NCBI GenBank assembly: GCA_028711115.1
Contig: JAQTSV010000001.1
Coordinates: 134,032-198,031, forward strand
DNA length: 64,000 nucleotides
Direction of reading: 5' to 3'
DNA from: Candidatus Omnitrophota bacterium
GTDB taxonomy: Bacteria; Omnitrophota; Gorgyraeia; Velamenicoccales; JABMQK01
Positions 9,140 through 47,927 of this stretch are shown one piece after another. The position numbers and the translations under genes are program-made. A model generated the notes under the pieces. That model searched no databases, had not been told where the DNA came from, and saw nothing but the letters and a program-made list of their open reading frames with translations. Positions within the stretch are counted from its first letter, which is position 1; the number at the start of each line of letters is the position of its first letter.

Positions 9140-9452
9140 AGAAACATCTTTGGAAAAAAAACTGGCAATAGCAGGACACGAAGATATAGTTACTGGATTT
9201 AAGGCCTTGGGTTTTAACGTATATCCGGTCAAAGAGGCAGAGGATTTTAAAAAAGCGCTGGAGGAAATCGTGCAGCAAAACAGCGCTGTCTGTCTGGTGC
9301 AGGATGATATTTATCGCGCCGCAGAAGCCGAGATTAACAATTATAAACATCTGGCGTTTCCGATTTTTATACCTTTTGCTAAAGATTTCAAAATGAATTC
9401 ATTAGATACAATAGTCAAAGATTTACGGCTCAGGGCAACAGGAACGTTTTAA
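9132..9452 (+). CDS. atpF: V/A-type ATP synthase subunit F
   Basis: 106 aa. KLAIAGHEDIVTGFKALGF motif and position directly before the A subunit. Confidence 0.75.
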   Translation: MLKETSLEKKLAIAGHEDIVTGFKALGFNVYPVKEAEDFKKALEEIVQQNSAVCLVQDDIYRAAEAEINNYKHLAFPIFIPFAKDFKMNSLDTIVKDLRLRATGTF

Positions 9453-9468
9453 AACGGAGAAACAATTT

Positions 9469-12577: not shown

Positions 12578-12579
12578 GT

Positions 12580-18264: not shown

Positions 18265-21200
18265 ATGACCATAGTACTTATTATATTGTTGGCCGGGTTT
18301 ATCGTTCTTATAGCCTATGCCTTATATGCTTTGGGTTTTCTGCAGGAGCCGGTAGATAAACTGATAGGTAAGGAGAAAAAGTCCGACAGCTCCGAGCAGG
18401 ATACCGCCGTATTGAATAAACAGGTCAGCTCTTTGAGAAGGGCGCTGGATAAACGAGAGGCAGAATATGCTACCTTAAAAAAAGAAACCGAAAGGGCGCA
18501 GCGCAACGAATTAGAGCTGCAGGAGCAATTGCTCAAGCAGAAAGAATGGACCAATGCCGATAAGGATAAATTGGAAAGAACTCTTGCCCAGAACGCAGAG
18601 CTGAAAAATGAATTTATCAAGAAAGAAACAGAGCTGAAGACAGAATTCTCCAAGGCCGTGAATTTAACCAAGGAGGTAAAAGACCTAAAGCAGAAAATAC
18701 AGGATTTCGAGGAGGATAAGAAAAATAAATTAAGCGAAATGATGGCCTTAAAGGCGCACATAGACATATATGAAAAAGGCAAAAAAGAACACTTAAAGAT
18801 TATCTCCGACTTTATGAAGAAAGAGGAGGAGAGCGAATTTATTTCCAAGGATATGTTCAGGAAGCTCCAGGATGATTACAATAAATTATTGAAAGAATAT
18901 ACGCAGGAATATGGCGCGCTGGAGAAGGAACTGGAGATAAAAGAAAGACAGCTGCAGCAATTATTATTAGCCAAGGTAACGGACAGGCAGGAGGCAGTAG
19001 CCGCGGCGCCAACACAAAATCCGCCGCCAGAAACACCGCCAATATCAACAGTGCCGCAGCCACCGCAAGAAAAACCCAGAGACATTCAGGAAGTTGCCCC
19101 AGCTCCGGCAAAGCCGCCAGTTGTGGAAGGATTGCCAGCGCAGCCACAGCCACCAACGCAAGAAGAAAAGCCGCAGCCAGCAGTTGCAGTGCCACAGGAA
19201 GAAATAAAACCAGGCGAACCTCAGGTTACAGAACCGCCGCAACAAGGGCAAGCTGAAGCAACACAACGCAAGGAAGAAATCCCTGCTCCCAAGTTTAATC
19301 TAGAGCAGTTAAGAAATATCGGAATTATGGCTCATATCGATGCCGGCAAGACCACGCTCACTGAAAGAATTTTATTTTACACCGGAAAATCACATAAAAT
19401 AGGCGAAGTCCACGACGGGACTGCCACTATGGACTGGATGGTGCAGGAACAGGAAAGAGGAATTACTATTACCTCCGCAGCTACCACCTGTTTATGGAAA
19501 GGCCACAGGATTAATGTAATCGATACGCCCGGCCACGTGGATTTTACCGTCGAGGTGGAGAGAAGCCTGCGCGTTTTAGACGGGGCAGTGGTTGTGTTTT
19601 GCGCTGTTGCCGGCGTGCAGGCGCAGTCCGAAACCGTATGGCGCCAGTCAGAAAAATATAATGTCCCCAAATTAGTATTCGTAAATAAAATGGACCGCAC
19701 CGGCGCTGATTTTTTTGCCGTGGTAAAGAGTATTGAAGAGGAACTTCAGTCAAATCCCATTATGGTGCAGATTCCTGTGGGCGCGGAACAGGATTTTGCT
19801 GGCGTAATCGACCTTCTGGAGATGAAGGCCTATGGATTTGACGAGGAGACTTTCGGCCAGGATGTTGTGGCCTGCGAAATCCCCGATGAATATAAAGAAG
19901 CCGCCAAAAAATACCGCCACCTTATGATAGAAAAAATTGCCGCATGCAATGATGCGCTGATGGAAAAATACCTTAAATCCGAGGATTCCATAACCAAGGA
20001 TGAATTGGTGGTTGTTTTGCGCAGTGCCACAATTGCCAACAGGGCTGTGCCTGTTTTGTGCGGCACGGCTTTGCGGAATAAAGGAGTGCAGCTTCTGCTC
20101 GACGCTGTGACTATGTATCTGCCTTCACCACTTGAGCTTCCTCCTGCCAAAGGAAATTCACCTGATGCGCCGGAGACAATTCTGGAAAGAAAGGCATCTA
20201 TTCAGGAGCCGTTTTCTGCTCTGGCATTCAAGGTGCAGACAGACCCGCATATGGGAAAACTCATTTATTTTAGGGTTTATTCGGGATTTCTCAGCGCAGG
20301 TTCTTATGTATTGAATTCCACCAAGAATAAAAAAGAAAGAGTGGCCAGGCTTTTTCAGATGCACGCCAATCAGAGAGAAAATATAGATGACGTCTTTACC
20401 GGAGATATCGCAGCCACAGTAGGGCTTAACTATACCATAACAGGCGATACTTTATGTGACGAAGATAATCCTGTTATTCTGGAGGCGATGCATTTTCCTA
20501 CGCCGGTGGTGTCTCTTAGCATAAAACCGGTAAGCCGCACAGACCAGGATAAATTAGGCAGGTCATTGGCGAAATTATCGGAAGAAGATCCTACCTTTAT
20601 TGCGCAGACAGACAGAGAAACAGAAGAAACGCTTTTAACCGGTATGGGCGAACTGCATTTAGAAATTATCGTGGACAGATTAAAGCGCGAGTTTGGCGTA
20701 AATGCCGAAGTAGGCCGGCCAAAAGTGGCTTACAGAGAAACCATCACGCAATCCGTAACCGAAGAGAGTAAATACATAAGGCAATCCGGCGGCAGAGGCC
20801 AGTATGGCCATGTAGTTTTTGAAATATCTCCGGCGGAATCCGGCAAGGGCCTGGATTTTGAAGACAGCATTAAAGGCGGCGCGATTCCCAAAAATTACAT
20901 TCCCTCCATAGAAAAAGGCGTGCGCGAAGCCATGCAGGACGGTATTTATGCGGGCTATCCTGTGGTGGACGTAAAAGTGAATCTGATAGACGGTTCCTTT
21001 CACGAGGTGGATTCTTCGGATATTGCCTTTCAGATTGCCGCCAGAGGCGGTTTCAAAAGCGGTTTTATGAAGTGCACGCCGATATTGCTTGAGCCATATA
21101 TGAAGCTTGAGGTTATTACGCCCGAGGAATATGTAAGTAACATTACTGCGCATATTTGTTCTCACCGGGGAAAAATTCAGGGCATGGAGACCAAAGGCAA

Positions 21201-21393
21201 ACAGAAAGTTGTCCTTGCGCAGGTGCCCCTTGCGGAGATGTTCGGTTCCACCACGGCATTCCGCTCATTAACCAGCGGCAGGGCAAGTTCATCCATGGAG
21301 TTTGAAAAGTATGCGCCGGTGCCTGCGGAAATCGCCAAAAAAATTATAGAAGAAAATAAAAAATCAGAAGAGAATAAGGGCAATAAGGAATAA
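18265..21393 (+). CDS. fusA: elongation factor G with a ~340-aa N-terminal extension (TM helix, coiled coil, Pro/Gln-rich linker)
   Basis: Residues ~343-1042 are canonical EF-G ([21 protein letters not shown], domains II-V including [10 protein letters not shown]). Residues 1-26 are hydrophobic ([26 protein letters not shown]), ~45-235 are K/E/L/Q heptad-like, and ~245-340 are P/Q/E-rich. SD-like AGGGGA lies before the ATG. Confidence 0.85.
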
Positions 21394-34022: not shown

Positions 34023-34994
34023 ATGAAGAAAAACATTACTTTATTAAAAAAACCGAAACTTAAAAATACTTTTTTTATTGCTGCCTGGCCAGGCATGGGT
34101 GATGTGGCTTTAAAGGCAGCCACATTTTTAAAAGACAAACTTAAGGCAGAAGAGTTTGCTGTGTTTAAATCCGAAGATTTCTTCCAGCCGCAGGGTGTTG
34201 AAATTCAGAATCAGATAATCACTACAGCTAAAATACCCGAAGGCAAATTTTATTTTTATAAAAGCAAACTGCTTAAAAATGACCTGATTATTTTTATCAG
34301 CGAAGCCCAGCCTCTGCTTGAGAAGAGTTATGAATATGCAAAACAGATAATTTCTTTCATCAAAGAATTTGATGTAGAAATGGTTTTTACATTTGCGGCC
34401 CTGCCTTCGCCCATAGAGCATAATAAAAAACCGGGGGTATGGGCGGTGGCCACACATAAAGAATTGCTTGAGAAATTAAAACAGCTGCCGCTGCAGTTTA
34501 TGCCTACAGGCCAGATCAGCGGACTCAACGGTTTGATTTTAGGCGTGTCCGGGGAATTTAACATACCCGGTATATGTTTGTTAGGCGAGATTCCTTTTTA
34601 TACCATCCAGATAGAAAATCCTTTATCTTCTTTGGCCGTCTTAAGGGTTTTGACGAAAATAATTAATGTAAGGATTGAGTATGCGGAACTAGAAGAACAC
34701 GCACATTTGATAAGTCAGGAGATTGAGAAGTTTATGGATTTTCTCAAAGATCCGGAATCTCAGGAAAAACCCATTGGCAGCGACGAGATAGAAAAGATAA
34801 AGGAAAGTTTAAGCGCCTATACGAAAATTCCCGAATCGGTAAAAAAGAAGATTGAGCAGTTATTCGAAGAGGCCAGGAGAGATATTTCCCAGGCCAGCGA
34901 ACTAAAAAAAGAATTAGACCACTGGAGTATCTATAAAGAATATGAAGACAGATTCCTGGATTTATTCAGAAAACCCGGTAAGAAAAATAACTGA
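34023..34994 (+). CDS. PAC2 (proteasome assembly chaperone 2-like) family protein with acidic/helical C-terminal tail
   Basis: N-terminal FFIAAWPGMGDVALKAATFLKDKL pattern and overall size resemble bacterial/archaeal PAC2 (COG1938) proteins. Confidence 0.55.
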   Translation: MKKNITLLKKPKLKNTFFIAAWPGMGDVALKAATFLKDKLKAEEFAVFKSEDFFQPQGVEIQNQIITTAKIPEGKFYFYKSKLLKNDLIIFISEAQPLLEKSYEYAKQIISFIKEFDVEMVFTFAALPSPIEHNKKPGVWAVATHKELLEKLKQLPLQFMPTGQISGLNGLILGVSGEFNIPGICLLGEIPFYTIQIENPLSSLAVLRVLTKIINVRIEYAELEEHAHLISQEIEKFMDFLKDPESQEKPIGSDEIEKIKESLSAYTKIPESVKKKIEQLFEEARRDISQASELKKELDHWSIYKEYEDRFLDLFRKPGKKNN

Positions 34995-37315: not shown

Positions 37316-37375
37316 TTTCTTAAGAAAATAAATTTTATCCGGGAGGGAAAAATTAAATAAAATCAAATTTTGTTG

Positions 37376-37407
37376 AGGGACTCGAATACGAGAGTCCCTA
37401 TTTTTTT
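37376..37407 (+). terminator. intrinsic terminator-like hairpin 8 nt upstream of the ATP-grasp start codon (possible attenuator)
   Basis: AGGGACTC-GAATACGA-GAGTCCCT (8-bp stem), then A and TTTTTTT (37401-37407). Confidence 0.6.
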
Positions 37408-37414
37408 AATTCAT

Positions 37415-38410
37415 ATGCCAAAGAAAATAGGTTTTACCTATAATGTAAAAAGTGAATTTCCCTTAAAGGTCGGCGATCCGGAAGATCTTAATGCCGAATT
37501 TGACAATCCGCAGACTATAGATTTAGTAAAATCTGCCATAGAATCCGGCGGGCACGAGGTTATCCTTATCGGCAACGCAAAAAATTTATTAAAAATGTTG
37601 CCGGATTTGAAAGTGGACATAATTTTTAATATTTGCGAGGGGATTGGTTCGAGAAATCGCGAGGCGCAAATCCCGGTTATATTAGAAACGTTAGGCATTC
37701 CATATGTCGGTTCGGACGGCCTGACCATGAGTTTGGCACTGGATAAAGTAATGGCAAAAAAAGTTTTTGCCGCCGAGAAAATTCCCACGCCCGGATGCGT
37801 AGGCATAAAAAAGATGGAGGATCTTGTCAATTTAGACCATTTGGAATTTCCTCTGATTGTGAAGTTGCGCCAGGAAGGGACTTCTAAGGGGCTTGCTAAC
37901 GACTCGGTGGTTCACAATAGAAAAGAACTAGAAAAAAAATCAGAATATTTATTCGGCACATATCATAACGCGCCTATTATTATCGAGCAGTTTATTCCCG
38001 GGAAAGAAATTACAGTTCCTATTATCGGCAATTCGCCACCAGAAGCCCTGCCGTCTGTCCAGTTGGCCATTAGCGGTATAACAGAATTGGAAGAGCTAAT
38101 CTACACTTACGAAATGGTGAAGTCTCCGGATGTAGACTATCTTTGCCCGTCCAGAATTGATAAACAATTGGAAAGCCAGCTTGGAGATTTAGCCGTGCGT
38201 GCATATAAAGCGGTGGATTGCCTGGATTTCGGCAGAGTAGATTTTAGAGTGGACAAAAATAATAATCCCTATGTTTTGGAAATAAACCCTTTGCCTTCTC
38301 TTGCTTTCGACGATGTATTTAACTTATCTCCGCAAGTCGTAGGTTACGATTACAACAAAGCTATTAATAAAATTCTTGATGCGGCGTTACTAAGATATGG
38401 TTTAAATTAA
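37415..38410 (+). CDS. ATP-grasp enzyme, D-alanine--D-alanine ligase family
   Basis: ATG 37415 (MPKKIGFTYNVKSE...). Ddl-like pattern: GSDGLTMSLALDKVMAKKVF, PLIVKLRQEGTSKG, IIEQFIPGKEITV, GRVDFRVD...PYVLEINPLPSL. Confidence 0.75.
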   Translation: MPKKIGFTYNVKSEFPLKVGDPEDLNAEFDNPQTIDLVKSAIESGGHEVILIGNAKNLLKMLPDLKVDIIFNICEGIGSRNREAQIPVILETLGIPYVGSDGLTMSLALDKVMAKKVFAAEKIPTPGCVGIKKMEDLVNLDHLEFPLIVKLRQEGTSKGLANDSVVHNRKELEKKSEYLFGTYHNAPIIIEQFIPGKEITVPIIGNSPPEALPSVQLAISGITELEELIYTYEMVKSPDVDYLCPSRIDKQLESQLGDLAVRAYKAVDCLDFGRVDFRVDKNNNPYVLEINPLPSLAFDDVFNLSPQVVGYDYNKAINKILDAALLRYGLN

Positions 38411-38421
38411 AGGAGGCCCAG

Positions 38422-39600
38422 TTGTCAACATCTAATATCGCGGCAGAAACACAACAATCTACCATTGATCCGGCATTGTTAAAAAAGAGCGTTATCGGCG
38501 ATTATCGCCGTATTGATTTATGGAAAGATGTATCGGAGCTTGATTGGGAAGATTGGCACTGGCAGGTTAAAAATCGTATTTGTAAAAAGGAAGAATTATC
38601 ACATCTTATAAAAATAACCCCCGAAGAGGAAGAAGGAATTAATAAATCTCACGGCCGTCTTGCTATGGCGATTACGCCGTACTGGGCAAATTTAATGGAT
38701 CCCGACGATTCTAATTGCCCTATACGCAAACAAGCTGTACCTGTAAAATCAGAATTAAAAATTTCGCAACATGAGATGACAGATCCCTGCGCAGAAGACA
38801 GAGATTCTCCTGTGCCTGGGTTGGTGCATCGTTATCCGGACAGGGTGTTGCTTTTGGTTACAGAGATGTGTTTTTCATATTGCCGCCATTGTACTCGACG
38901 CAGAATGGTCGGTGAAGGCAGAAATATTTTAGACCGGAATAATTTAGATAAAGCTATAGATTATATCCGTTCCGACCGTAAGATAAGGGATGTTTTGATA
39001 TCCGGCGGCGATCCGTTTATGTTGGAAGACAATGTATTGGAGGAAATTATTAAGAAGTTGCGTTCCGTCTCCCAAATAGAATTTTTACGTATAGGCACGC
39101 GTGCGCCGGTAACATTGCCGCAGAGAATTACTATTGGTTTGGTGAATATGCTTAAAAAATATTCACCGATTTGGATTAGTATTCATTTTAATCACCCCCG
39201 GGAAATAACCAAGCGCTGTAAATTTGCCTGTGATATATTAGCCGATAACGGATTCCCTTTGGGCAGCCAGACAGTATTGCTTAAGGGCGTAAATGACAGG
39301 CCTTATGTTATGCGCAAACTAATGCACGAACTATTGGAAATCCGCGTGCGCCCTTATTATATCTATCAATGCGACCCGGCAAAAGGCACATCGCACTTCC
39401 GTACGCCTATATCCGTAGGCATAAATATCATGGAGAAGTTAAGAGGCCATACTTCCGGCTATGCCGTGCCTACTTATGTTGTGGATGCGCCCGGCGGAGG
39501 CGGTAAGATTCCTGTGGGGCCAAATTATCTTATTTCAGAAGCAAAAGACAGATACACATTCCGCAATTACAAGAAGAAAATCTATACATATATAGAGTAG
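38422..39600 (+). CDS. kamA: lysine 2,3-aminomutase (KamA family radical SAM)
   Basis: TTG start 6 nt after AAGGAGG. CFSYCRHCTRR (CxxxCxxC), ISGGDPFML, GSQTVLLKGVND, YYIYQCDPAKGTSHFRT, VVDAPGGGGK. Confidence 0.9.
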   Translation: MSTSNIAAETQQSTIDPALLKKSVIGDYRRIDLWKDVSELDWEDWHWQVKNRICKKEELSHLIKITPEEEEGINKSHGRLAMAITPYWANLMDPDDSNCPIRKQAVPVKSELKISQHEMTDPCAEDRDSPVPGLVHRYPDRVLLLVTEMCFSYCRHCTRRRMVGEGRNILDRNNLDKAIDYIRSDRKIRDVLISGGDPFMLEDNVLEEIIKKLRSVSQIEFLRIGTRAPVTLPQRITIGLVNMLKKYSPIWISIHFNHPREITKRCKFACDILADNGFPLGSQTVLLKGVNDRPYVMRKLMHELLEIRVRPYYIYQCDPAKGTSHFRTPISVGINIMEKLRGHTSGYAVPTYVVDAPGGGGKIPVGPNYLISEAKDRYTFRNYKKKIYTYIE

Positions 39601-39662: not shown

Positions 39663-39691
39663 TTGACTGATTTTTGCTTTTCTAATATAAT
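39663..39691 (+). promoter_or_regulatory. near-consensus sigma70 promoter (TTGACT-17 nt-TATAAT)
   Basis: TTGACT at 39663-39668 and TATAAT at 39686-39691, about 90 nt upstream of the EF-G-2-like start. Confidence 0.6.
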
Positions 39692-39778
39692 AAGCACTCT
39701 AACATTGTTCCTTCCTTATATATTTAGGTAAGCCTTTTATTGGTTTTAACTATTTGGTAAGAAAGGAGATTTGTTTCT

Positions 39779-41743
39779 ATGGAAGGTTTCTCACCCGACA
39801 AAAAAAGAAACTTTATTTTGGTTTCTCATTCGCAGGCAGGAAAGACCACGCTTTGCGAATCTTTATTGTCACTTGCCGGCGCAACAACCCGTAAAGGTTC
39901 TGTTGCAGAAGGAAATACCGTCAGTGACTATTCCGAGGAAGAGAAGGCTCGCAAGATTTCTATTTCATCCAGCGTAATGAATCTTACATATAAAGGCCAT
40001 TTTATTCAGATGATAGATTCGCCCGGCTATGCGGATTTTATCGGCGAGGTTGTGTCGTGTTTACGGGGAGTGGACGCGGCAATAGTTATAATAGATGCCT
40101 TTGGCGGCATAGAAGTGGGCACCGAGCGCGTTTGGGAAATGCTGGACAATTTAAATCTGCCCCGTTTGATTTTTGTCAATAAATTAGACAAAGAAAGCAC
40201 CAATTTAGACAAAACTTTTGCAGAGATAAAAAATAATCTTTCTAAAAAAGCCATTTTGATTAAAGAGCCGTTGTCCGCAGAGAATATCGAAACAATCGCC
40301 GAGAGTAACGATGCGTTATTGGAAAAATATCTGGAAGGAAAAGAAATTCCGCAGGACGAACTAAAGAAGGCCTTGAAAACCGCAGTGGCCCAGGGAAAAG
40401 TCTATCCTGTATTTAGCGGCTGTGCCATTTCGGATAAAGGCGTTAAAGAAGTTTTGGAGGCAATTATTGAGTATCTTCCCAGCCCTCTGGAAAGGCCCAG
40501 GCCGAAGGTCAAGGACGCAAAGAGCAATCAGGAAAAAGAAATTGAGTTGAGTGAATCAGCGCCATTGGCAGGATTTGTCTTTAAGACCGTCGCTGATCCG
40601 TATGTGGGTCAGCTTTCCATATTAAGATTATTCTCAGGTAAGCTCCAGGCGAATACAAGTTTTTATAATGTTACAAAACAAAGCAAAGAGCGTTTCAGCC
40701 AGATTTATTGTCTGCAGGGGAAAGAACAGCGGCCCATTACAGAGGCTTCCTGCGGAGATATTGTCGCCATAGCCAAGTTAAAAGACACCAGCACAAACGA
40801 CAGCATATCCAGCGAGAATAATCCTGTTTTGTTTGAGCCCACAGTTTTTCCCGAACCCATATATTCCGCCTCCATAAAACCTAGGACTCGCCAGGACGAA
40901 GATAAAATCTCAGTTACCTTGGCCAAAATCACCAGCGAAGATTCAACTTTTAAGATAACGCGCGATGCCCAGACAAAAGAAATGATAATCTCGGGGATGG
41001 GCGATCAGCATTTAAATGTAATGGTTGAGAGAATGAAGAAGAGGTTTAATGTAGAGGTGGATTTAGGCACTCCCAAAGTTCCTTATAAAGAGACGCTTGT
41101 AAAGACAGCCAAGGTCCAGGGAAAATATAAAAAGCAATCCGGAGGCCGCGGACAATACGGCGATGTCTGGCTGGAAGTGGCGCCATTGCCACGCGGAGGA
41201 GATTTCGAATTTGTGGATAAAATTGTCGGAGGCGCAATACCCAGAAATTATATTCCCTCAGTAGAAAAAGGCGTAAGAAATGCAATGGTCGAAGGCATAA
41301 TTGCCGGCTATCCTTTTGTGGATGTGAGAGTCACTTTATATGACGGTTCTTATCATGAGGTTGATTCTTCAGATATGGCTTTTCAGATTGCCGGTGCCAT
41401 GGCTTTTCGCAAGGCAGTTTTAGAGGCAAGCCCGGTATTAATCGAACCAATTATGAATGTCGAGGTATTGATTACGGAAGAATTTATGGGCCAGATTTCC
41501 GGAGATGTCAATTCGCGCCGTGGCAGGGTCATGGGCATGGATTCGCGTTCCAAATATCAGGTTCTGAAAGCCCAGATCCCTCTGGTTGAGATGTTTAGCT
41601 ATGCGGCAGATTTAAGGTCTATGACCGGCGGCAGAGGCACATATTCCATGAGTTACTCTCATTACGAAATAGTTCCGCCGAAGATCGCCCAGGAAATTAT
41701 CGCCAAATACCAGCAGACAAGAAAAGCGGAGCAGGAAAGATGA
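39779..41743 (+). CDS. elongation factor G paralog (EF-G-2-like)
   Basis: 654 aa with a five-domain EF-G layout. G1 SHSQAGKTT, G3 DSPGYADF (Tyr84, codon TAT at 40028-40030, in place of the catalytic His), G4 NKLD, and [10 protein letters not shown] in domain IV. Confidence 0.85.
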   Translation: MEGFSPDKKRNFILVSHSQAGKTTLCESLLSLAGATTRKGSVAEGNTVSDYSEEEKARKISISSSVMNLTYKGHFIQMIDSPGYADFIGEVVSCLRGVDAAIVIIDAFGGIEVGTERVWEMLDNLNLPRLIFVNKLDKESTNLDKTFAEIKNNLSKKAILIKEPLSAENIETIAESNDALLEKYLEGKEIPQDELKKALKTAVAQGKVYPVFSGCAISDKGVKEVLEAIIEYLPSPLERPRPKVKDAKSNQEKEIELSESAPLAGFVFKTVADPYVGQLSILRLFSGKLQANTSFYNVTKQSKERFSQIYCLQGKEQRPITEASCGDIVAIAKLKDTSTNDSISSENNPVLFEPTVFPEPIYSASIKPRTRQDEDKISVTLAKITSEDSTFKITRDAQTKEMIISGMGDQHLNVMVERMKKRFNVEVDLGTPKVPYKETLVKTAKVQGKYKKQSGGRGQYGDVWLEVAPLPRGGDFEFVDKIVGGAIPRNYIPSVEKGVRNAMVEGIIAGYPFVDVRVTLYDGSYHEVDSSDMAFQIAGAMAFRKAVLEASPVLIEPIMNVEVLITEEFMGQISGDVNSRRGRVMGMDSRSKYQVLKAQIPLVEMFSYAADLRSMTGGRGTYSMSYSHYEIVPPKIAQEIIAKYQQTRKAEQER

Positions 41744-42438
41744 AGGCTGCCATATATGGTTTGGATAATTTTCCTGTGGGCAAAAAAAACGTACCCGACG
41801 AAAGATTGGACCGCCTGGAAGAAATGTTTCAGTCCAAAAAAGTCACTTCTGTGCAGATTGAATTTATTTCCGTAGAAGATGTTAAAGACGCAGAAGTGGT
41901 GTTTTCCAAAGAAGACAAAAAAACAGACCTTGTTTTGTCTGATCTGGAATATGTCCAGGACAGGCTCACCAAAGATATTCCCGACGCGGAAAAGACGCTT
42001 TTTTCCAAGGCGAAAGAGATTCTCGAAAAAGAGGAATTTTTATTTAAACACCTAAGCAAGGAAGAACTGAAAATCTTAAGAGGTTTTCCTTTGCTTACGG
42101 TTATTCCCGTATACCTTATTAAAGATGAAGATAGCTTTGATGAAGACAAGGATTTAAAGGAAATCTACTATGCCTCGGGTAGAATTTGTTTCTTTACCGC
42201 CGGAGAAAAAGAAGCGCGCGCCTGGTCTATACAAAACGGCACAAATGCATTTGATGCGTCGGGCTATATCCATTCAGACATTAAACAGGGTTTTATCCGC
42301 GCCGAGGTGGTGAGCTTGGAAGATTTATTCAATACAGGGCATTATAACCAGGCAAAGAACGAAGGCAAGATAAGATTAGAGAATAAAGATTATATCGTCA
42401 AAGACGGCGATTATATTATTTTCAGAACGAATAAATAG
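41740..42438 (+). CDS. YchF-like protein with degenerate P-loop (retains YchF C-terminal TGS-like/DUF933 domain)
   Basis: The C-terminus [16 protein letters not shown]...[13 protein letters not shown]...[20 protein letters not shown] aligns closely with E. coli YchF (YFTAGVKEVRAWTI...GFIRAQTISFEDF...[20 protein letters not shown]). The N-terminus reads [12 protein letters not shown] instead of GLPNVGKST. 232 aa versus about 363. An ATGA overlap joins it to the upstream gene. Confidence 0.75.
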   Translation: [232 protein letters not shown]

Positions 42439-42456: not shown

Positions 42457-44016
42457 ATGGCTAAGATTAAGCGCGCATTGATCAGCGTATCAGACAAAAG
42501 TGGAATTGTGGAATTGGCACAGGAATTAGCCAAATTTGGCGTGGAAATTATTTCTACAGGCGGCACGGCAAAATTATTGAAAAATTCAGGCGTAAATGTA
42601 AAAGAAATATCCGAACATACGGGTTTTCCCGAAATGCTCGACGGAAGAGTAAAGACGCTGCATCCCAAGATTCACGGCGGATTACTCGCGCTTCGCGACA
42701 ACCCCGAGCATTTAAAACAAATCAAAGAACATAATATCGAGCCCATAGATATGGTGGTGGTTAATTTATATCCGTTTGAGGCGACTATAAAAAAGCCCGG
42801 CGTAACTTTGGAAGAAGCTATAGAAAATATCGATATCGGCGGGCCGTCAATGTTACGTTCTGCTGCCAAGAATTATCGTTCGGTTGCGGTTGTCTCTGAT
42901 GCAAAATATTATTCCAGAATCATCCAGGAATTAAAGCAAAATCAAGGCGCAATTTCCGACGGACTTTTAAAAGAACTGGGTTTGAATGTATTTAAACTTA
43001 CTTCTTATTACGACGGGAAAATTTACGAATATCTTTCCCGGCAATTAGCCCAAGGCAAGGCGGACGAATTATTTCCCAAAGAAATTAATTTAAAATTTTC
43101 CAAAATTCAGGATTTGCGTTACGGAGAAAACCCGCATCAGAAAGCAGCGCTTTACAAAGACCCGCAGGTTTTGGACGAATCATTGGCAAATGCGCAAAAA
43201 TTAAGCGGCAAGGAATTATCCTTCAATAATTTTCTGGATTTAAACGCAGCCTGGGGTATTGTGCGCGAATTCGACGAGCCGGCAGCAGTGGTCATAAAAC
43301 ACTTAAATCCCACGGGAGTTGCTATCGCCAAAGACATAAAGACGGCTTATCTTAAGGCCTGGTCTGCGGATAAACTTTCCGCATTCGGCGGCATTGTCGG
43401 ATTAAATAAAAAAGTTGATTTGGACACAGCCAAAAAAATAAATACCAGCGGTTTCCTGGAATGCGTCATCGCTCCTGATTACGATAAGGACGCATTGGAA
43501 CTGCTTATACAGAAGAAAAATTTCAGAGTCCTTAAATTAAAATTAAATAAACCCAAACAGGGCCTGGATATAAAAAGTATCGACGGCGGAGTGGTTATTC
43601 AGGAGAATGATTTATTAGATTTGGATAAAGATAAATTAAAAGTCGTTACAAAAAGAAAGCCTACGCAGAAAGAATGGAAGGATTTATTGTTTGGCTGGAA
43701 AGTTGTAAAGCACGTAAAATCCAACGCCATTGTGTTTGCCAAAAATTTGCAGACAGTCGGCGTGGGCATGGGCCAGATTAACAGAGTTGACAGCGTTATG
43801 CTCTGCGCAAAAAGAGCGGGCAAAAATTCCAAAGGTTCGGTGCTTGCCTCCGACGCGTTTTTCCCGAAGGAAGACAATATAAAACTTGCCGCAAAGGCAA
43901 AAGTTAAAGCAATAATCCAGCCCGGCGGCTCCATCGCCGACGAGGCTGTAATCAAAGAAGCCGACAAGCACGGCATTGCCATGGTTTTTACCGGCTGCCG
44001 CCACTTTAAGCACTAG
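42457..44016 (+). CDS. purH: bifunctional AICAR transformylase / IMP cyclohydrolase
   Basis: RALISVSDK, GGTAK, GRVKTLHPKIHGG, VVVNLYPF and C-terminal QPGGSIAD...FTGCRHFKH. Confidence 0.95.
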   Translation: MAKIKRALISVSDKSGIVELAQELAKFGVEIISTGGTAKLLKNSGVNVKEISEHTGFPEMLDGRVKTLHPKIHGGLLALRDNPEHLKQIKEHNIEPIDMVVVNLYPFEATIKKPGVTLEEAIENIDIGGPSMLRSAAKNYRSVAVVSDAKYYSRIIQELKQNQGAISDGLLKELGLNVFKLTSYYDGKIYEYLSRQLAQGKADELFPKEINLKFSKIQDLRYGENPHQKAALYKDPQVLDESLANAQKLSGKELSFNNFLDLNAAWGIVREFDEPAAVVIKHLNPTGVAIAKDIKTAYLKAWSADKLSAFGGIVGLNKKVDLDTAKKINTSGFLECVIAPDYDKDALELLIQKKNFRVLKLKLNKPKQGLDIKSIDGGVVIQENDLLDLDKDKLKVVTKRKPTQKEWKDLLFGWKVVKHVKSNAIVFAKNLQTVGVGMGQINRVDSVMLCAKRAGKNSKGSVLASDAFFPKEDNIKLAAKAKVKAIIQPGGSIADEAVIKEADKHGIAMVFTGCRHFKH

Positions 44017-44047: not shown

Positions 44048-45436
44048 ATGAATTATTCTCAGGCAATAAAATACCTGAATTCATTCGTTAATTACGAAAA
44101 AATCTCCAGTTATTCTTACGGTTATCCGCTTAAATTACAGCGGTTTATTAATTTTCTTAATTTAATCGGCAATCCGCAAAATGATTTAAAGGTTATTCAC
44201 GTTGCCGGCACAAAAGGAAAAGGTTCAACCTCGGCGTTCACAGCTTTTATTTTGAAAGAGGCAGGTTTCAAAATCGGTTTATACACATCGCCGCATCTGA
44301 ATGATTTCCGGGAGAGAATCAGAATCTTAAATCCGAAATCCGAAATCCGAAATCCGAAGCAAATCCCAAATCCCAAATCCCAAATTCAAAAATTAGATGA
44401 TTTTGAAGGGATGATTTTAAAAAAAGATATTCTCGGTTTAGTTTCCGGATTAAAACCTAAAATAGATAAATTTAATAAAACTTCGAAATACGGAGAATTA
44501 ACTTTTTTTGAAGTCTATACAGCGATAGCATTTCAATATTTCAAAGACAAAAAAGTAGATTTTGCGGTTTTAGAGACAGGTCTCGGCGGAAGATTGGATG
44601 CGACCAATGTATGCAAATCACTGGTATCCATACTTACGCCGATTAGTTTAGAACATACGTATTTATTGGGTAATACTTTGGAAAAAATCGCTTTTGAAAA
44701 GGCCTCAATTATAAAAAAAGAAAATAAGAAATCTCTAAACGGAAAAACTTTAGCTGTAAGCGCGCATCAGGATAAAACCGCTTTAAATGTAATTAAAAAA
44801 ATGGCGCAAAGAAATAACGCGGTTTTGTTTTACGAAGGGCGAGATTTCAAATTCAAGGTAAAAAAGAATTCATTTGATTATAAAGGATTAAATTATAATT
44901 TAGAAAATTTAAACATAAAATTACTAGGCAAACATCAAATTGCCAACGCCAGTTTAGCTATTTGCGCTATTGAGGCTTTGCGATATCAAGGTATCGATAT
45001 AAAAGAAGACGCGATTAAAAATGGATTAAAGAATTGCCTTTGGCCGGCGAGATTTGAGGTTATTTCCAAGAAACCAACGATTATTATCGACGGAGCGCAG
45101 AATGGCGCGTCAGTAAAAGCTTTAAGCAAAGCGCTAAAAGAAAAGTTTCCTGGCAGAAAAATCTGGGCGATTTTTGGCATTGCCAAAGATAAGGAGCTAA
45201 AAGATACATCTTGCGAGGTAGAAAAAATTACGCGTAACATAATTTTAACCAAAGCAGATAATACCCGCGCCGCCGAACCCAAAGATTTATTAAAATATTT
45301 TAAAACCAATTCCCAAATTCTGACTAAGAATTCCAAAGAGGCCCTGAAAGTAGCTAAGGCTAAAGCAAACAAAAACGATGTGATTTTAGTAACGGGATCG
45401 TTATATTTGTGCGGAGAGACAAGGGAAATTTTATAA
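44048..45436 (+). CDS. folC: bifunctional folylpolyglutamate synthase / dihydrofolate synthase (carries an internal repeat-encoded insertion)
   Basis: HVAGTKGKGST P-loop, TSPHL, LETGLGGRLDATN, DGAQN. About 30 extra residues after ERIRI relative to E. coli FolC, as recalled. Confidence 0.85.
   Translation: MNYSQAIKYLNSFVNYEKISSYSYGYPLKLQRFINFLNLIGNPQNDLKVIHVAGTKGKGSTSAFTAFILKEAGFKIGLYTSPHLNDFRERIRILNPKSEIRNPKQIPNPKSQIQKLDDFEGMILKKDILGLVSGLKPKIDKFNKTSKYGELTFFEVYTAIAFQYFKDKKVDFAVLETGLGGRLDATNVCKSLVSILTPISLEHTYLLGNTLEKIAFEKASIIKKENKKSLNGKTLAVSAHQDKTALNVIKKMAQRNNAVLFYEGRDFKFKVKKNSFDYKGLNYNLENLNIKLLGKHQIANASLAICAIEALRYQGIDIKEDAIKNGLKNCLWPARFEVISKKPTIIIDGAQNGASVKALSKALKEKFPGRKIWAIFGIAKDKELKDTSCEVEKITRNIILTKADNTRAAEPKDLLKYFKTNSQILTKNSKEALKVAKAKANKNDVILVTGSLYLCGETREIL
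44329..44388 (+). repeat. tandem heptanucleotide repeats: (AAATCCG)x4, AAGC, (AAATCCC)x3, then degenerate AAATTCA
   Basis: Read directly. Units at 44329, 44336, 44343, 44350 and at 44361, 44368, 44375. Translated in the folC frame as LNPKSEIRNPKQIPNPKSQIQ. Confidence 0.9.
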
Positions 45437-45972: not shown

Positions 45973-47352
45973 ATGGATACCAAAATAGACGATACAATTG
46001 TAGCAATTTCCACACCAATCGGCGAGAGCGCGATTGGGATTGTGAGGATGAGCGGAGGAAGTTCCCTAAAAATCGCAGATAGGATTTTTAAGGGAAAAGA
46101 CGGAATCTTGCCATCAAAGTTTAAGTCGCACACTATTCGTTACGGCTGGATAAGAAATAAGGCTAAACCGATAGATGAAGTCCTTTTGACGTTGATGCGC
46201 GCGCCAAAAACTTATACGCGTGAAGATATCGTGGAGATAAGTTCGCACGGCGGAGCAGTATCTTTACGAAAGATTTTGGAATTGGTTATAAATTGCGGTG
46301 CAAGGCTGGCAGAACCCGGTGAATTTACCAAAAGGGCATTTTTGAATGGCCGCATTGATTTGGCAAAAGCAGAAGCGGTTTTGGATATAATCCGCGCAAA
46401 GACTGATACCGCCTTAAAATTGGGAGTCGAGCAATTATCCGGAGGCTTATCCAATAAAATAAAATCAATCAGAAAAGAACTTATAGATATTTTAGCGCAT
46501 ATTGAAGCGGATATTGATTTTTGCGAGGAGGATATAGAAACAAATTCCCGTAAAATCCTGGTAAATAAAATAAATAATGTCTCCAAGCAATTGGAAGTTA
46601 TCATTTTGGATTCCCAGAAATCAAATTTCTTCCGCGAGGGAATAAAAGTTACAATTTGCGGCAGGCCAAATGTAGGAAAATCATCTTTGCTTAACGCGAT
46701 TTTAAGAAAAGAAAGGGCGATTGTTACACCTATTGCCGGAACCACGCGTGATATAATCGAAGAATTCATAAATTTGGGCGGAGTCGGCATAAGATTAGTC
46801 GATACAGCAGGAGTGGTTAAACCCAAAGATTTGATAGAACACCACGCAGTAAGATTGGCAAAAAATTCAATCGCGCTTAGCGATATAGTGTTACTTGTAT
46901 TTGACTCAAGCCAAAAGTTAACTCAAAGAGATTTTCATCTTATCAAAGAATTAAAAGGAAAAGATGTGATTGCAGTTTTAAATAAAATTGATTTGCCACA
47001 GCGCATACAAATAGGTAAGATAAGGAAAGAATTCAAAAAGATTGTTTCGGTTTCTTCGTTAAAACAGAAAAATATCGATAAATTGGAGAAAGCAATTGCG
47101 GGTTTTGTTTATAAGGGAAAAGTTATTTCCAGCGAGGGATTGATTACTACCAATGCCCGCCAGATTGGCGAGATAAAACAGGCCAGGGATTTATTAGATA
47201 AAGCAAAAAACAGTTTTATAAAAGAATTGTCTTTAGAATTTGTGGCCCTGGACTTAAAACTGGCGCTGGATTGTTTAGGCAGAATTACAGGCGAAGCAGT
47301 AGATAGCGCTATATTAGATAAAATATTTTCGGAATTCTGTATCGGCAAATAG
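45973..47352 (+). CDS. mnmE: tRNA uridine-5-carboxymethylaminomethyl modification GTPase
   Basis: DTIVAISTPIGESAIGIVRMSG, GRPNVGKSSLLNA, DTAG and the C-terminal FCIGK. Confidence 0.95.
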   Translation: MDTKIDDTIVAISTPIGESAIGIVRMSGGSSLKIADRIFKGKDGILPSKFKSHTIRYGWIRNKAKPIDEVLLTLMRAPKTYTREDIVEISSHGGAVSLRKILELVINCGARLAEPGEFTKRAFLNGRIDLAKAEAVLDIIRAKTDTALKLGVEQLSGGLSNKIKSIRKELIDILAHIEADIDFCEEDIETNSRKILVNKINNVSKQLEVIILDSQKSNFFREGIKVTICGRPNVGKSSLLNAILRKERAIVTPIAGTTRDIIEEFINLGGVGIRLVDTAGVVKPKDLIEHHAVRLAKNSIALSDIVLLVFDSSQKLTQRDFHLIKELKGKDVIAVLNKIDLPQRIQIGKIRKEFKKIVSVSSLKQKNIDKLEKAIAGFVYKGKVISSEGLITTNARQIGEIKQARDLLDKAKNSFIKELSLEFVALDLKLALDCLGRITGEAVDSAILDKIFSEFCIGK

Positions 47353-47366
47353 AATTGGAGGAATAA

Positions 47367-47927
47367 ATGGATAAAAATAAAATTAAGAAAGCAGTAAAAG
47401 AAATTTTAGCGGCAATCGGCGAAAATCCGAACAGGACTGACCTTAAAGCAACTCCGCAAAGGGTGGCTGATATGTATGAGGAGATTTTTTCCGGGATTAA
47501 ACAGGATGCCAAAAAAGAATTAGAGGTTGTTTTGGAACAGAAGCACAATGAAATAGTTCTTTTAAAAAGTATTCCTTTATATTCTGTATGCGAACATCAC
47601 CTTCTTCCGTTTATCGGAAAGGCGCATGTTGCCTATATTCCCAAAGGCGGGCGCGTGACGGGATTAAGCAAAATTGCGCGCGTTGTCGATGTTTTATCTA
47701 GGCGGCTGCAGGTCCAAGAAAGGCTGACTACGCAAATCGCCGACGTAATTATGCAAAAATTAAAACCTCTGGGAGTTATGGTAGTTTTGGAAGCGGAACA
47801 TCTTTGTATGTCCATGCGCGGGGTGAGAAAGCCCGGGACGTTTACCGTGACAAGTGCTGTGAGAGGGATATTTAAGGATAATCAGAAGACAAGGTCAGAA
47901 GCACTATCTTTAATCAAAGATAGGTAA
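47367..47927 (+). CDS. folE: GTP cyclohydrolase I
   Basis: [25 protein letters not shown] and RLQVQERLT motifs. Confidence 0.95.

What the first reader, a model, noticed from the sequence alone, without database searches (positions are those of the whole stretch)
39779..42438. EF-G-2-type paralog (catalytic His to Tyr) translationally coupled to a P-loop-degenerate, shortened YchF
Seen in sequence: the 654-aa EF-G paralog has DSPGYADF, with TAT at 40028-40030, where translational GTPases carry DxPGH. Its stop overlaps the start of the next gene (ATGA at 41740). That 232-aa protein keeps the YchF C-terminal domain almost intact (GFIRAEVV..., [13 protein letters not shown]). Its N-terminus reads [12 protein letters not shown] instead of the Walker A GLPNVGKST, and it lacks about 130 residues of the G domain and helical insertion. 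A near-consensus promoter (39663-39691) precedes the pair. Established knowledge: EF-G-2 of Thermus also has a Tyr at this position (as I recall) and its function is unresolved, and YchF is a ribosome-associated ATPase. Inference: the pair may form a dedicated ribosome-associated module in which a nucleotide-binding-dead YchF acts as an adaptor.
Basis: partly seen in the sequence, partly recalled or inferred. Interest (0 to 1): 0.5.

Follow-up and report, generated by a model that had tools for sequence, protein, structure and literature searches.

The report
Histidine-less EF-G paralog beside nucleotide-free mini-YchF
In an Omnitrophota bacterium, an already-known type of second elongation factor G (tyrosine in place of the catalytic histidine) is co-transcribed with an undescribed, well-conserved cut-down YchF that has lost every ATP-binding element; whether the two proteins work together is untested.

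Summary
The 654-aa gene (39779-41743) belongs to the known EFG II subfamily. It has Tyr for the catalytic His, as in Thermus EF-G-2 and M. smegmatis EF-G2, and Ser in G2. It matches 5 of 6 subfamily-specific positions and lies outside the str operon. A His-bearing EF-G sits in the same window, at 18265-21393. All 80 relatives recovered from several phyla also lack the His, so this feature is ordinary.

The 232-aa gene (41740-42438) is the new part. It aligns collinearly with canonical YchF, with exactly 130 residues missing in 7 blocks and no insertions. The missing blocks remove G1, G2, G3/switch II, the HVVR segment, the coiled-coil tip and the region where G5 is expected. AlphaFold gives mean pLDDT 96, and Foldseek matches only YchF/OLA1 strongly. 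About 140 such proteins exist; every one that carries a taxon label is Omnitrophota apart from a few contigs labelled as other taxa, which look mis-binned.

Pairing is frequent but not obligatory. EFG II lies directly upstream in 23 of 27 mini-YchF loci, with gaps of 18 bp or less in 15. purH follows just as often (20 of 23). No YchF lies beside EFG II in the 57 loci from other phyla.

The "adaptor module" idea is untested. I could not determine whether a canonical YchF coexists in these genomes.

The parts
37370..38410 (+). Ddl-like ATP-grasp ligase gene, the upstream member of the conserved gene string. The start codon is uncertain.
   Evidence: It scores below the cut-off on NCBIfam D-Ala-D-Ala ligase models. 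One or two copies are conserved upstream in relatives.
38422..39600 (+). KamA-family radical-SAM lysine 2,3-aminomutase-like gene (AblA-like).
   Evidence: TIGR03820 scores 522 bits against a cut-off of 525; the KamA family model TIGR00238 scores 348 against 199. It is conserved directly upstream of EFG II in many loci.
39663..39691 (+). Sigma-70-like promoter match, TTGACT-17-TATAAT, in the 178-bp gap upstream of the EF-G paralog.
   Evidence: It matches 11 of 12 positions and is the best site in 38.3-47.5 kb. This is a consensus match only.
39763..39768 (+). Shine-Dalgarno-like AAGGAG, 10 nt upstream of the ATG at 39779.
   Evidence: Read directly from the sequence.
39779..41743 (+). EFG II-subfamily elongation factor G paralog, 654 aa.
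   Evidence: It has all five EF-G Pfam domains and scores 861 bits on NF009381. The best PDB match to its G domain is Thermus EF-G-2, 1WDT. EFG II signature positions are met (PMC3150367).
40028..40030 (+). TAT codon (Tyr84) at the position of the catalytic switch-II histidine.
   Evidence: DSPGY aligns with DTPGH of the second EF-G in the window and with DAPGY of 1WDT.
40283..40288 (+). Junction of a deletion of about 45 residues in the G' subdomain, between residues 169 and 170.
   Evidence: BLASTP against the His-bearing EF-G of the window shows the gap. HMM matches are split in two stretches at this point.
41740..41743 (+). ATGA stop/start overlap between the two genes.
   Evidence: Seen directly. 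The same -4 overlap occurs in 5 of 23 paired loci.
41740..42438 (+). Mini-YchF, a 232-aa YchF/OLA1 derivative with no nucleotide-binding motifs.
   Evidence: Supported by Pfam and NCBIfam, the family alignment, an AlphaFold2 model with mean pLDDT 96.4, Foldseek matches to YchF/OLA1 with query-normalised TM-score 0.69-0.83, and the deletion map.
41767..41772 (+). Junction where 26 residues are missing: the Walker A GKS, helix alpha-1 and the G2 motif NYPFCT.
   Evidence: MAFFT alignment against canonical YchF P0118 places the deletion after window residue 10.
42184..42432 (+). Intact YchF C-terminal (TGS-like) domain, residues 149-231.
   Evidence: PF06071 scores 110 bits. This domain holds most of the family's invariant residues.
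42457..44016 (+). purH, 19 bp downstream on the same strand, with no terminator-like site in the gap.
   Evidence: NF002049 scores 744 bits. purH follows mini-YchF in 20 of 23 assessable loci. Terminator scan.
44048..45436 (+). folC, a member of the conserved downstream string.
   Evidence: TIGR01499 scores 373 bits. Synteny.
45973..47927 (+). mnmE (45973-47352) and folE (47367-47927), which end the conserved string.
   Evidence: Identified by NCBIfam. Synteny.
18265..21393 (+). Context: a second, His-bearing EF-G (DTPGH, RGITI) in the same window. It shows that the 654-aa gene is a paralog.
   Evidence: TIGR00484 scores 1044 bits in one stretch. Translation. It is 39% identical to the Tyr-type EF-G.

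Best explanation
This is the front of an Omnitrophota operon. It encodes two ribosome-associated factors that are made together but are probably not an obligate complex.

Gene 1 is an EFG II-subfamily EF-G paralog.
- It keeps GTP-binding motifs G1 (GKTT) and G4 (NKLD), the G5-region sequence (GCAIS), and canonical domain IV loops.
- It has Tyr for the catalytic His, Ser for the G2 Thr, and a 45-residue G' deletion.
- By analogy with characterised EF-G2 proteins, it most likely binds GTP and the ribosome but hydrolyses GTP poorly. It would then act as an alternative factor under stress or energy limitation, alongside the genome's His-bearing EF-G (inference).

Gene 2 is a 'mini-YchF'.
- It is a YchF/OLA1 from which exactly the 130 residues carrying the nucleotide-binding elements were excised. 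These are G1, G2, G3/switch II, the HVVR segment (the region where the catalytic His is expected), the region where G5 is expected, and the Lys-rich coiled-coil tip.
- What remains is a remnant of the beta-sheet core, a shortened coiled coil and an intact TGS-like domain.
- It cannot be an ATPase. It most likely acts as a nucleotide-independent ribosome- or RNA-binding scaffold (inference).

Shown: the identities, the deletions, the conservation, the gene order, and spacing typical of co-transcribed genes.
Inferred: the biochemical activities and any cooperation between the two proteins.
For: EFG II identity:
- The domain architecture is complete.
- The window protein has Leu25, Ser61, Thr291, Gly333, Lys352 and KK471-472 at the EFG II signature positions of PMC3150367 Table 1. 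These were read from the alignment using 1WDT numbering verified.
- It has Tyr at the position where 1WDT has Tyr.
- All 80 relatives found in genome contigs lack the His (mostly Tyr, sometimes Phe, Asp or Ser). None has S7 or EF-Tu genes as neighbours.
- A canonical EF-G lies in the same window.

Likely behaviour of EFG II, from the literature:
- M. smegmatis EF-G2 has H88 replaced by Y98, and an H88Y mutation in EF-G1 nearly abolishes GTPase activity (bioRxiv 10.64898/2026.05.25.727771).
- B. thetaiotaomicron fusA2 is induced on carbon limitation (PMC6989115).

Mini-YchF:
- 130 residues are missing in 7 blocks, there are no insertions, and identity to a canonical YchF is 46% over the 232 aligned columns.
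- 142 of 143 mini-length family members lack a Walker A motif.
- The 48-sequence alignment has 20 invariant columns.
- The AlphaFold2 model has mean pLDDT 96.4, and the top 15 Foldseek hits are all YchF/OLA1.
- About 30 clusters at 50% identity exist among 1.84 billion representative proteins.

Operon:
- A promoter-like site lies upstream.
- The two genes overlap by 4 nt.
- 15 of 23 EFG II/mini-YchF gaps are 18 bp or less.
- The gap to purH is 19 bp, with no terminator-like site in it.

Plausibility of nucleotide-independent action: for E. coli YchF, the ATPase is proposed to be unnecessary for subunit splitting and to be needed only for release from the 50S subunit (PMC11814078).
Against: - No biochemical data exist for either protein.
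- Thermus EF-G-2, which also carries Tyr, is reported to retain ribosome-dependent GTPase and translocation activity (cited in bioRxiv 10.64898/2026.05.25.727771). Tyr therefore does not by itself prove loss of hydrolysis.
- The 50S contacts mapped for E. coli YchF are not obviously kept. The Lys-rich helical tip is shortened by 8 residues, and the region that contains the alpha-7 contact is deleted (PMC11814078). Ribosome binding by mini-YchF is thus an assumption.
- Overlapping stop/start spacing recurs across lineages that are 35-100% identical. This would also fit a tighter, stoichiometric partnership than I assume.
Confidence: 0.55

Rival explanations
1. EFG II and mini-YchF form a dedicated physical module on the ribosome, in which the nucleotide-dead YchF scaffold acts as an adaptor or regulator for the GTPase-impaired EF-G. 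It might, for example, position EF-G or hold subunits apart.
For: - The genes are adjacent in 23 of 27 mini-YchF loci. The -4, -1 or +1 spacing seen in 8 of these suits 1:1 co-translation.
- Adjacency persists down to 32-35% mini-YchF identity.
- Both parent families act on ribosomes, and both are linked to subunit splitting or recycling (PMC11814078; bioRxiv 10.64898/2026.05.25.727771).
- Where EFG II lacks mini-YchF, its downstream neighbour is YebC/TACO1 in three lineages.
- In L093, mini-YchF sits beside an ABC-F protein.
- From my own knowledge, not tested here: both YebC/TACO1 and ABC-F proteins belong to families described as translation factors.
Against: - Four mini-YchF loci lack EFG II upstream. 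These include L094, where the kamA-like gene abuts mini-YchF directly.
- Five Omnitrophota EFG II loci lack mini-YchF.
- None of the 57 EFG II loci from other phyla has any YchF within 8 kb.
- purH is as tightly linked to mini-YchF as EFG II is.
- There is no interaction evidence. Co-folding could not be run.
Confidence: 0.2
2. Mini-YchF functions with the downstream purine, folate and tRNA-modification genes (purH-folC-mnmE-folE) and not with EF-G. It could act, for example, as a TGS-domain ligand sensor or regulator. Its position next to EFG II would then be incidental.
For: - purH follows mini-YchF directly in 20 of 23 assessable loci, and folC follows in 2 more. This includes L093 and L094, which lack EFG II.
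- The gap to purH in the window is 19 bp, with a GGAGGAG ribosome-binding site.
Against: - I found no known link between YchF/OLA1 and folate or purine metabolism in the papers read.
- L095 has mini-YchF without any of these neighbours.
- The conserved surfaces are those of the YchF C-terminal domain, as in ribosome-associated YchF.
Confidence: 0.1
3. The short YchF is a decaying relic, a mis-called ORF or an assembly artefact, and has no function.
For: - It scores well below the YchF equivalog cut-off (118 bits against 279).
- It lacks all catalytic motifs.
Against: - About 140 proteins of 221-256 aa share the same deletion pattern in independent assemblies whose G+C content ranges from 39% to 64%.
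- The family alignment has 20 invariant and 28 nearly invariant columns.
- The loss is deletion-only and collinear, with no frameshifts.
- The model has mean pLDDT 96.4.
Confidence: 0.03

Closest known systems
EFG II subfamily of elongation factor G (Margus, Remm and Tenson 2011, PMC3150367). Examples: Thermus thermophilus EF-G-2 (PDB 1WDT/2DY1) and M. smegmatis EF-G2 (PDB 9K0Z/9K10).
   Same: - Five-domain EF-G fold, located outside the str operon, and co-resident with a His-bearing EF-G.
- G2 reads xxxSx in place of RGITI.
- Leu25, Thr291, Gly333, Lys352 and KK471-472 are present.
- Tyr replaces the switch-II catalytic His.

   Different: - Position 16 is Ser in the window protein, not Gly. 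Many Omnitrophota orthologs do have Gly.
- It has a 45-residue G' deletion that the Bacillota and Aminicenantes relatives (about 690-700 aa) appear not to share.
- It is unusually well conserved within the phylum, at 59-84% identity, for a subfamily described as fast-evolving.
- Only here is it followed by a YchF derivative.
Bacteroides thetaiotaomicron EF-G2 / fusA2 (NCBIfam NF058620; PDB 7UVP/8DMF)
   Same: It is a second EF-G used under carbon limitation and reported to support slow translocation (PMC6989115; bioRxiv 10.64898/2026.05.25.727771). This is the working analogy for the function proposed here.
   Different: The window protein scores 537 bits against the model's cut-off of 1000, so it is not a member of that Bacteroidota clade. 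Its expression conditions are unknown.
YchF/OLA1 Obg-family ATPase (TIGR00092; PDB 1JAL, 2DBY, 2OHF, 8KIE)
   Same: - Same overall three-lobed architecture in the model: query-normalised TM-score 0.69-0.83, and all 15 top Foldseek hits are YchF/OLA1.
- 46% identity over all 232 aligned residues.
- The C-terminal domain is near-canonical.
   Different: - It lacks Walker A, G2, G3/switch II, the HVVR segment, the NxxE specificity motif and the region where G5 is expected.
- Its coiled-coil tip is shorter and lacks the Lys cluster that contacts H62 in E. coli.
- It scores 118 bits against the 279-bit cut-off.
(PMC11814078)
RsfS and eIF6, nucleotide-independent ribosomal-subunit anti-association factors
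   Same: This is a functional analogy only. E. coli YchF binds at uL14/bL19 near the RsfS/eIF6 site. Its ATPase is proposed to be dispensable for splitting (PMC11814078). A nucleotide-free YchF could act in the way these factors do.
   Different: There is no homology. Binding of mini-YchF to any ribosomal site is untested.

Membership tests
EFG II subfamily of EF-G (PMC3150367) | Complete EF-G architecture (G domain and domains II-V) | tested here: met
   Pfam finds GTP_EFTU, EF-G_D2, EFG_III, EFG_IV and EFG_C.
EFG II subfamily of EF-G (PMC3150367) | Gene not in the str operon (rpsL-rpsG-fusA-tuf) | tested here: met
   The neighbours are the kamA-like gene and mini-YchF/purH. No S7 or EF-Tu hits occur in any of the 80 related loci.
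EFG II subfamily of EF-G (PMC3150367) | Always accompanied by another EF-G in the genome | tested here: met
   Window ORF 18265-21393 encodes an EF-G with DTPGH and RGITI and scores 1044 bits on TIGR00484. The str-operon EF-G reported for Omnitrophota comes from bioRxiv 10.64898/2026.06.07.730766.
EFG II subfamily of EF-G (PMC3150367) | G2 RGITI relaxed, with Ser instead of Thr (position 61) | tested here: met
   RKISI in the window protein aligns with RGITI of the window's canonical EF-G.
EFG II subfamily of EF-G (PMC3150367) | Type I positions Leu25, Thr291, Gly333 and Lys/Arg352 (1WDT numbering) | tested here: met
   The window protein reads GKTTL, FKTVADP, CLQGKE and AIAKLK. The canonical EF-G reads GKTTL(T), FKVQTDP, QMHANQ and ATVGLN. 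Numbering follows the verified 1WDT sequence.
EFG II subfamily of EF-G (PMC3150367) | Type I position Gly16 (GH...GKT) | tested here: not met
   The window protein has SHSQAGKTT. Many Omnitrophota orthologs have GHAQSGKTS. The position is 86% conserved in the subfamily.
EFG II subfamily of EF-G (PMC3150367) | Lys-Lys before the domain IV loop I QSGG (positions 471-472) | tested here: met
   [15 protein letters not shown] in the window protein compares with [14 protein letters not shown] in the canonical EF-G and YKKQTGGHGQYGDVW in 1WDT.
EFG II subfamily of EF-G (PMC3150367) | Weak or absent ribosome-stimulated GTPase activity (reported for the M. smegmatis member; not a formal criterion) | not testable with these tools
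   Only sequence evidence is available: Tyr84 replaces His. All 80 relatives lack the His.
YchF/OLA1 ATPase (NCBIfam TIGR00092 equivalog) | Score at or above the curated cut-off (279.2 bits) | tested here: not met
   The score is 118.3 bits, and only profile positions 277-367 are matched.
YchF/OLA1 ATPase (NCBIfam TIGR00092 equivalog) | Walker A / G1 motif GxxxxGK[ST] | tested here: not met
   The motif is deleted together with helix alpha-1 (P0118 residues 11-36). It is absent in 142 of 143 family members.
YchF/OLA1 ATPase (NCBIfam TIGR00092 equivalog) | G2 (NYPFCT), G3 (DxxG)/switch II, G4 (NxxE) and G5 | tested here: not met
   P0118 blocks 11-36, 72-89 and 210-264 are absent. NISE aligns with KDED.
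YchF/OLA1 ATPase (NCBIfam TIGR00092 equivalog) | Inserted coiled-coil (helical) domain | tested here: met
   Helices 58-76 and 82-96 are present in the model, and the fold matches YchF structures. The tip is 8 residues shorter.
YchF/OLA1 ATPase (NCBIfam TIGR00092 equivalog) | C-terminal YchF-specific TGS-like domain (PF06071) | tested here: met
   It scores 110 bits against a cut-off of 27 and covers profile positions 2-84 of 84.
YchF/OLA1 ATPase (NCBIfam TIGR00092 equivalog) | Ribosome association and ATP hydrolysis | not testable with these tools
   Hydrolysis is predicted to be absent. Ribosome binding is unknown.

The most novel reading that the evidence does not exclude
In most Omnitrophota the near-universal ATPase YchF has been replaced, not supplemented, by a nucleotide-free scaffold. 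This scaffold would be co-produced with a GTPase-impaired EF-G2 and work with it on the ribosome. Together they would form an NTP-sparing system for splitting, holding or slowly translocating ribosomes in ultra-small, energy-limited cells. It would also mean that the core function of YchF does not need its ATPase.
Probability: 0.15. Interest if true: 0.75.

Novelty: new variant of a known kind. Interest (0 to 1): 0.45.

Why it matters
YchF/OLA1 is encoded in about 99% of bacterial genomes (PMC12641178, supplement), yet its role remains poorly defined. The mini-YchF family is a natural separation-of-function variant: it keeps the helical and TGS-like parts under strong constraint and discards every nucleotide-binding element. 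If mini-YchF still acts on ribosomes, it would show which YchF activities do not depend on ATP. That would bear directly on the proposal that the ATPase serves only to release YchF from the 50S subunit (PMC11814078).

[quoted passage not shown] At present the family is annotated only as 'DUF933 domain-containing protein' or, misleadingly, as 'ribosome-binding ATPase YchF'.

Tried and rejected
- **Does a canonical YchF coexist in Omnitrophota genomes?** I could not resolve this.
  - The top canonical hits to the mini-YchF profile are Coprothermobacter, Wallbacteria and unlabelled proteins.
  - The paper supplements hold no per-phylum YchF table.
  - The roughly 0.5 Mb of Omnitrophota DNA I held contains no canonical YchF, but all of it comes from the same region.
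- **Metagenome scan with the family alignment.** Only 4 mini-YchF loci were gained.
- **P0257 and P0258.** They looked like the closest canonical relatives of the mini family, but they are assembly artefacts with duplicated segments.
- **P0086.** It carries a chance GDLTSGKT string at the deletion junction. Helix alpha-1 and the other motifs are missing, so this is not a retained P-loop.
- **Rfam search of 36-48 kb at E up to 1.** No leader or riboswitch was found.
- **spdEFG1/2 classification.** I considered it because Omnitrophota is related to Planctomycetes. I rejected it: there is no KDG insertion in switch I, and the EFG II signature positions are met.
- **Linker-fused co-folding of the two proteins.** I did not attempt it.
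- **My first by-eye assignment of domain II signature positions.** It was wrong. I corrected it after verifying 1WDT numbering.
- **Literature searches.** Searches for DUF933, truncated YchF and membrane-anchored EF-G found nothing relevant.


Full report
**Observation**

The window comes from a Candidatus Omnitrophota MAG. The 232-aa protein is identical to an NCBI 'DUF933 domain-containing protein', and it lies on contig JAQTLW010000001.1 of GCA_028714715.1.

- ORF 39779-41743 (654 aa) has DSPGYADF, with TAT at 40028-40030.
- Its TGA overlaps the ATG of ORF 41740-42438 (232 aa).
- The site TTGACT-17-TATAAT lies at 39663-39691.
- The second ORF has a YchF C-terminal domain but no Walker A motif.

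A 4-nt overlap is ordinary in this genome; 35786-35789 is another example. The promoter match is the best in 9 kb, but it is only a consensus match.

**The EF-G**

Pfam finds all five EF-G domains. NCBIfam's best model is the 'elongation factor G' subfamily NF009381, at 861 bits. The canonical equivalog TIGR00484 is passed only narrowly (692 bits against a cut-off of 659), in two stretches that skip part of the G' subdomain.

The G domain alone is most similar to Thermus thermophilus EF-G-2 (1WDT), among all PDB chains.

The same window holds a second EF-G, at 18265-21393. It has [19 protein letters not shown] and NKMD, and it scores 1044 bits on TIGR00484 in a single stretch. The two proteins are 39% identical. 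The Tyr-type protein has a 45-residue G' deletion.

I read the diagnostic positions of Margus et al. (PMC3150367, Table 1) from that alignment, using 1WDT numbering that I verified. The window protein has Leu25, Ser61, Thr291, Gly333, Lys352 and KK471-472. Only Gly16 is missing; it is Ser here and Gly in many orthologs.

A scan of GTDB species representatives returned 80 relatives:
- 23 are from Omnitrophota, at 51-82% identity.
- 57 are from Bacillota, Aminicenantes, Sumerlaeota, Syntrophales and other groups, at 40-47% identity.
- Every one has Tyr, Phe, Asp or Ser at the His position.
- None has S7 or EF-Tu genes as neighbours.

The gene is therefore a normal member of the EFG II subfamily, and His-to-Tyr is a trait of that subfamily.

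The literature has moved beyond 'unresolved':
- In M. smegmatis EF-G2, H88 is replaced by Y98. An H88Y mutation in EF-G1 nearly abolishes GTPase activity. EF-G2 is described as a stress-specific factor.
- Thermus EF-G-2 is reported to retain GTPase and translocation activity.
- B. thetaiotaomicron EF-G2 supports slow translocation and is induced on carbon limitation.

The sources are bioRxiv 10.64898/2026.05.25.727771 and PMC6989115.

**The short YchF**

A homology search found about 117 proteins of 213-254 aa, at 38-100% identity. Nearly all that carry a name are labelled Omnitrophota. Full-length YchFs appear only below them in the ranking, at 34% identity or less.

A 48-sequence alignment has 20 invariant and 28 nearly invariant columns. 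Most lie in the C-terminal domain, but G14-K15, D20, R22, K34 and Q39 in the N-terminal remnant are also conserved.

I aligned the protein to a canonical YchF (P0118, 362 aa). The window protein is strictly collinear: 130 residues are absent in seven blocks, there are no insertions, and identity is 46% over all 232 aligned positions. The missing blocks, in P0118 numbering, are:
- 11-36, VGKST...NYPFCTID, which holds Walker A, helix alpha-1 and G2.
- 72-89, which holds the rest of G3 and switch II.
- 100-103, HVVR.
- 109-126.
- 148-155, the tip of the coiled coil.
- 178.
- 210-264, the stretch after G4, where G5 is expected.

The G4 specificity motif NISE aligns with KDED.

Of 143 proteins of mini length, 142 have no GxxxxGK[ST] motif. 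The one exception is a chance string at the deletion junction.

AlphaFold2 with the family alignment gives mean pLDDT 96.4 and pTM 0.88. The top 15 Foldseek hits in the PDB are all YchF/OLA1, with query-normalised TM-scores of 0.69-0.83. Isolated TGS domains follow far behind.

A profile search of 1.84 billion representative proteins finds about 30 mini-length clusters. After them come canonical YchFs, matched in three stretches.

This is therefore not a degenerate P-loop. It is a clean excision of every nucleotide-binding element from an otherwise well-preserved YchF. I call it mini-YchF. It fails the YchF equivalog cut-off (118 bits against 279), and I do not file it as a YchF ATPase. I found no paper that describes it.

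**Gene order**

Eight look-ups of mini-YchF proteins, at 42-100% identity, all show the same gene string: one or two Ddl-like ATP-grasp genes, an AblA-like lysine 2,3-aminomutase, EFG II, mini-YchF, purH, folC, mnmE and folE.

Pooling all distinct loci gives these counts:

| Question | Count |
|---|---|
| Mini-YchF loci with EFG II directly upstream | 23 of 27 |
| EFG II/mini-YchF gaps of -4 | 5 of 23 |
| EFG II/mini-YchF gaps of -1 or +1 | 3 of 23 |
| EFG II/mini-YchF gaps of 18 bp or less | 15 of 23 |
| Largest EFG II/mini-YchF gap | 421 bp |
| Assessable mini-YchF loci with purH directly downstream | 20 of 23 |
| Assessable mini-YchF loci with folC directly downstream | 2 of 23 |
| Assessable Omnitrophota EFG II loci with mini-YchF downstream | 16 of 21 |
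| EFG II loci from other phyla with any YchF within 8 kb | 0 of 57 |

Four mini-YchF loci lack EFG II:
- L093 has an ABC-F gene upstream.
- In L094 the kamA-like gene abuts mini-YchF.
- L095 and L096 are contigs with 63-64% G+C and unrelated neighbours.

Five Omnitrophota EFG II loci lack mini-YchF. In three of them the next genes are yebC/TACO1 and ruvC.

The pairing is thus lineage-specific, frequent and often compact. It is not obligatory, and it is no tighter than the link between mini-YchF and purH.

In the window, no terminator-like site separates mini-YchF from purH. The gap is 19 bp and holds a GGAGGAG ribosome-binding site. No Rfam family matches the region.

**Most likely mechanism**

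Shown: the identities, the motif losses, the conservation, and spacing typical of co-transcribed genes.

Inferred for the Tyr-type EF-G: it keeps the G1 and G4 motifs, the G5-region sequence and canonical domain IV loops ([21 protein letters not shown]). It should therefore bind GTP and the ribosome, but with impaired hydrolysis. It would serve as an alternative factor under energy limitation, as described for characterised EF-G2 proteins.

Inferred for mini-YchF: it cannot use nucleotides. It probably acts as a passive ribosome- or RNA-binding scaffold through its helical and TGS-like parts. This would fit the proposal that E. coli YchF splits or holds subunits without needing ATP hydrolysis, which serves only for release (PMC11814078).

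There is a caveat. The Lys-rich helical tip, and the deleted region that contains the alpha-7 contact, bind H62 and uL14/bL19 in E. coli. Both are shortened or deleted here, so the binding site may differ.

A role tied to purH-folC gets 0.1, and a non-functional relic gets 0.03.

**What remains open**

The key unknown is whether these genomes also encode a canonical YchF. Replacement of a protein present in about 99% of bacteria (PMC12641178, supplement) would be far more notable than an extra paralog. No tool allowed co-folding or an interaction test.

**Verdict**

- The EF-G half is already known biology.
- The mini-YchF half is a new, undescribed variant of a known family.
- The functional coupling is plausible but unproven.

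Interest is moderate, at 0.45.

Noticed in passing
window 18265-21393 (+): A 1042-aa ORF. Its C-terminal ~700 aa form a canonical His-type EF-G (TIGR00484, 1044 bits). This part is fused in frame, with no stop codon and no plausible internal ATG/GTG/TTG start, to an N-terminal extension of about 340 aa. The extension has a hydrophobic, TM-like helix ([25 protein letters not shown]), a Lys/Glu-rich coiled coil and a Pro/Gln-rich linker. Of the 120 best homologs, 105 carry an extension longer than 250 aa, and 95 of those start with a TM-like segment. All 120 have DTPGH. NCBI annotates only 704 aa (P0415, beginning MPAPKF where the ORF reads IPAPKF), which hides the extension. This may be a membrane-anchored EF-G conserved in Omnitrophota. 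I found no literature on it.
   Followed up: partly
L175 10001-16940: One Omnitrophota contig carries two His-type EF-G genes 1.6 kb apart: a 698-aa form and a 1081-aa N-terminally extended form. Neither is in a str operon. Genes for an S21 protein, a 141-aa RF-1-domain protein and an RRM protein lie nearby. These genomes therefore appear to hold at least three EF-G family genes.
   Followed up: partly
window 37370-39600 (+); also L004-L021, L173, L174: An AblA-like lysine 2,3-aminomutase (TIGR03820, 522 bits against a cut-off of 525; it scores much lower, 239 bits, on the EpmB model) and one or two Ddl-like ATP-grasp ligases are conserved directly upstream of EFG II. This could be a beta-lysine-forming and ligating unit. 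Its product, and any link to translation, are unknown.
   Followed up: partly
L026 8234-9602; L028 4489-5265; L033 6966-7727: In Omnitrophota lineages where EFG II is not followed by mini-YchF, the next gene is YebC/TACO1, followed by ruvC in L026 (the next gene was not annotated in L028 or L033). From my own knowledge, YebC/TACO1 belongs to a family recently described as translation factors that relieve ribosome stalling. EFG II thus sits beside a different ribosome-associated factor in these lineages.
   Followed up: partly
L093 2891-5705: Here a mini-YchF is preceded not by EFG II but by an ABC-F ATPase (two ABC_tran domains, ABC_tran_Xtn and ABC_tran_CTD). purH-folC-mnmE-folE still follow downstream.
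   Followed up: partly
L007 11324-12702; L008 6465-7843: The folE gene (GTP cyclohydrolase I) at the end of the conserved string is interrupted by an intein (Intein_splicing, PT-HINT and a faint LAGLIDADG hit), giving a 533-aa product.
   Followed up: no
window 34023-34994 (+): A PAC2 / proteasome assembly chaperone family protein (TIGR00162, below cut-off; Pfam PAC2) is encoded in this bacterial genome.
   Followed up: no
window 5365-13200 (+): This stretch holds a V/A-type ATPase gene cluster: a subunit I-like gene and the A and B catalytic subunits. No F-type ATPase genes were seen in the ORFs I annotated in this window.
   Followed up: no
P0036, P0144, P0496; L015, L018, L024, L026, L027, L031, L035: Several records that carry the Omnitrophota-type EFG II or mini-YchF genes are labelled 'Thermoproteota archaeon' or 'uncultured Planctomycetia bacterium' in public databases. 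These labels are probably mis-binning or mislabelling.
   Followed up: no
L095 5001-5702; L096 4989-5705: Mini-YchF genes also occur on contigs with 63-64% G+C, beside unrelated genes (an NPCBM/melibiase gene and a TPR/YfiO gene). The family therefore spans very different genome compositions, and its taxonomic range may be wider than the labelled Omnitrophota MAGs.
   Followed up: partly
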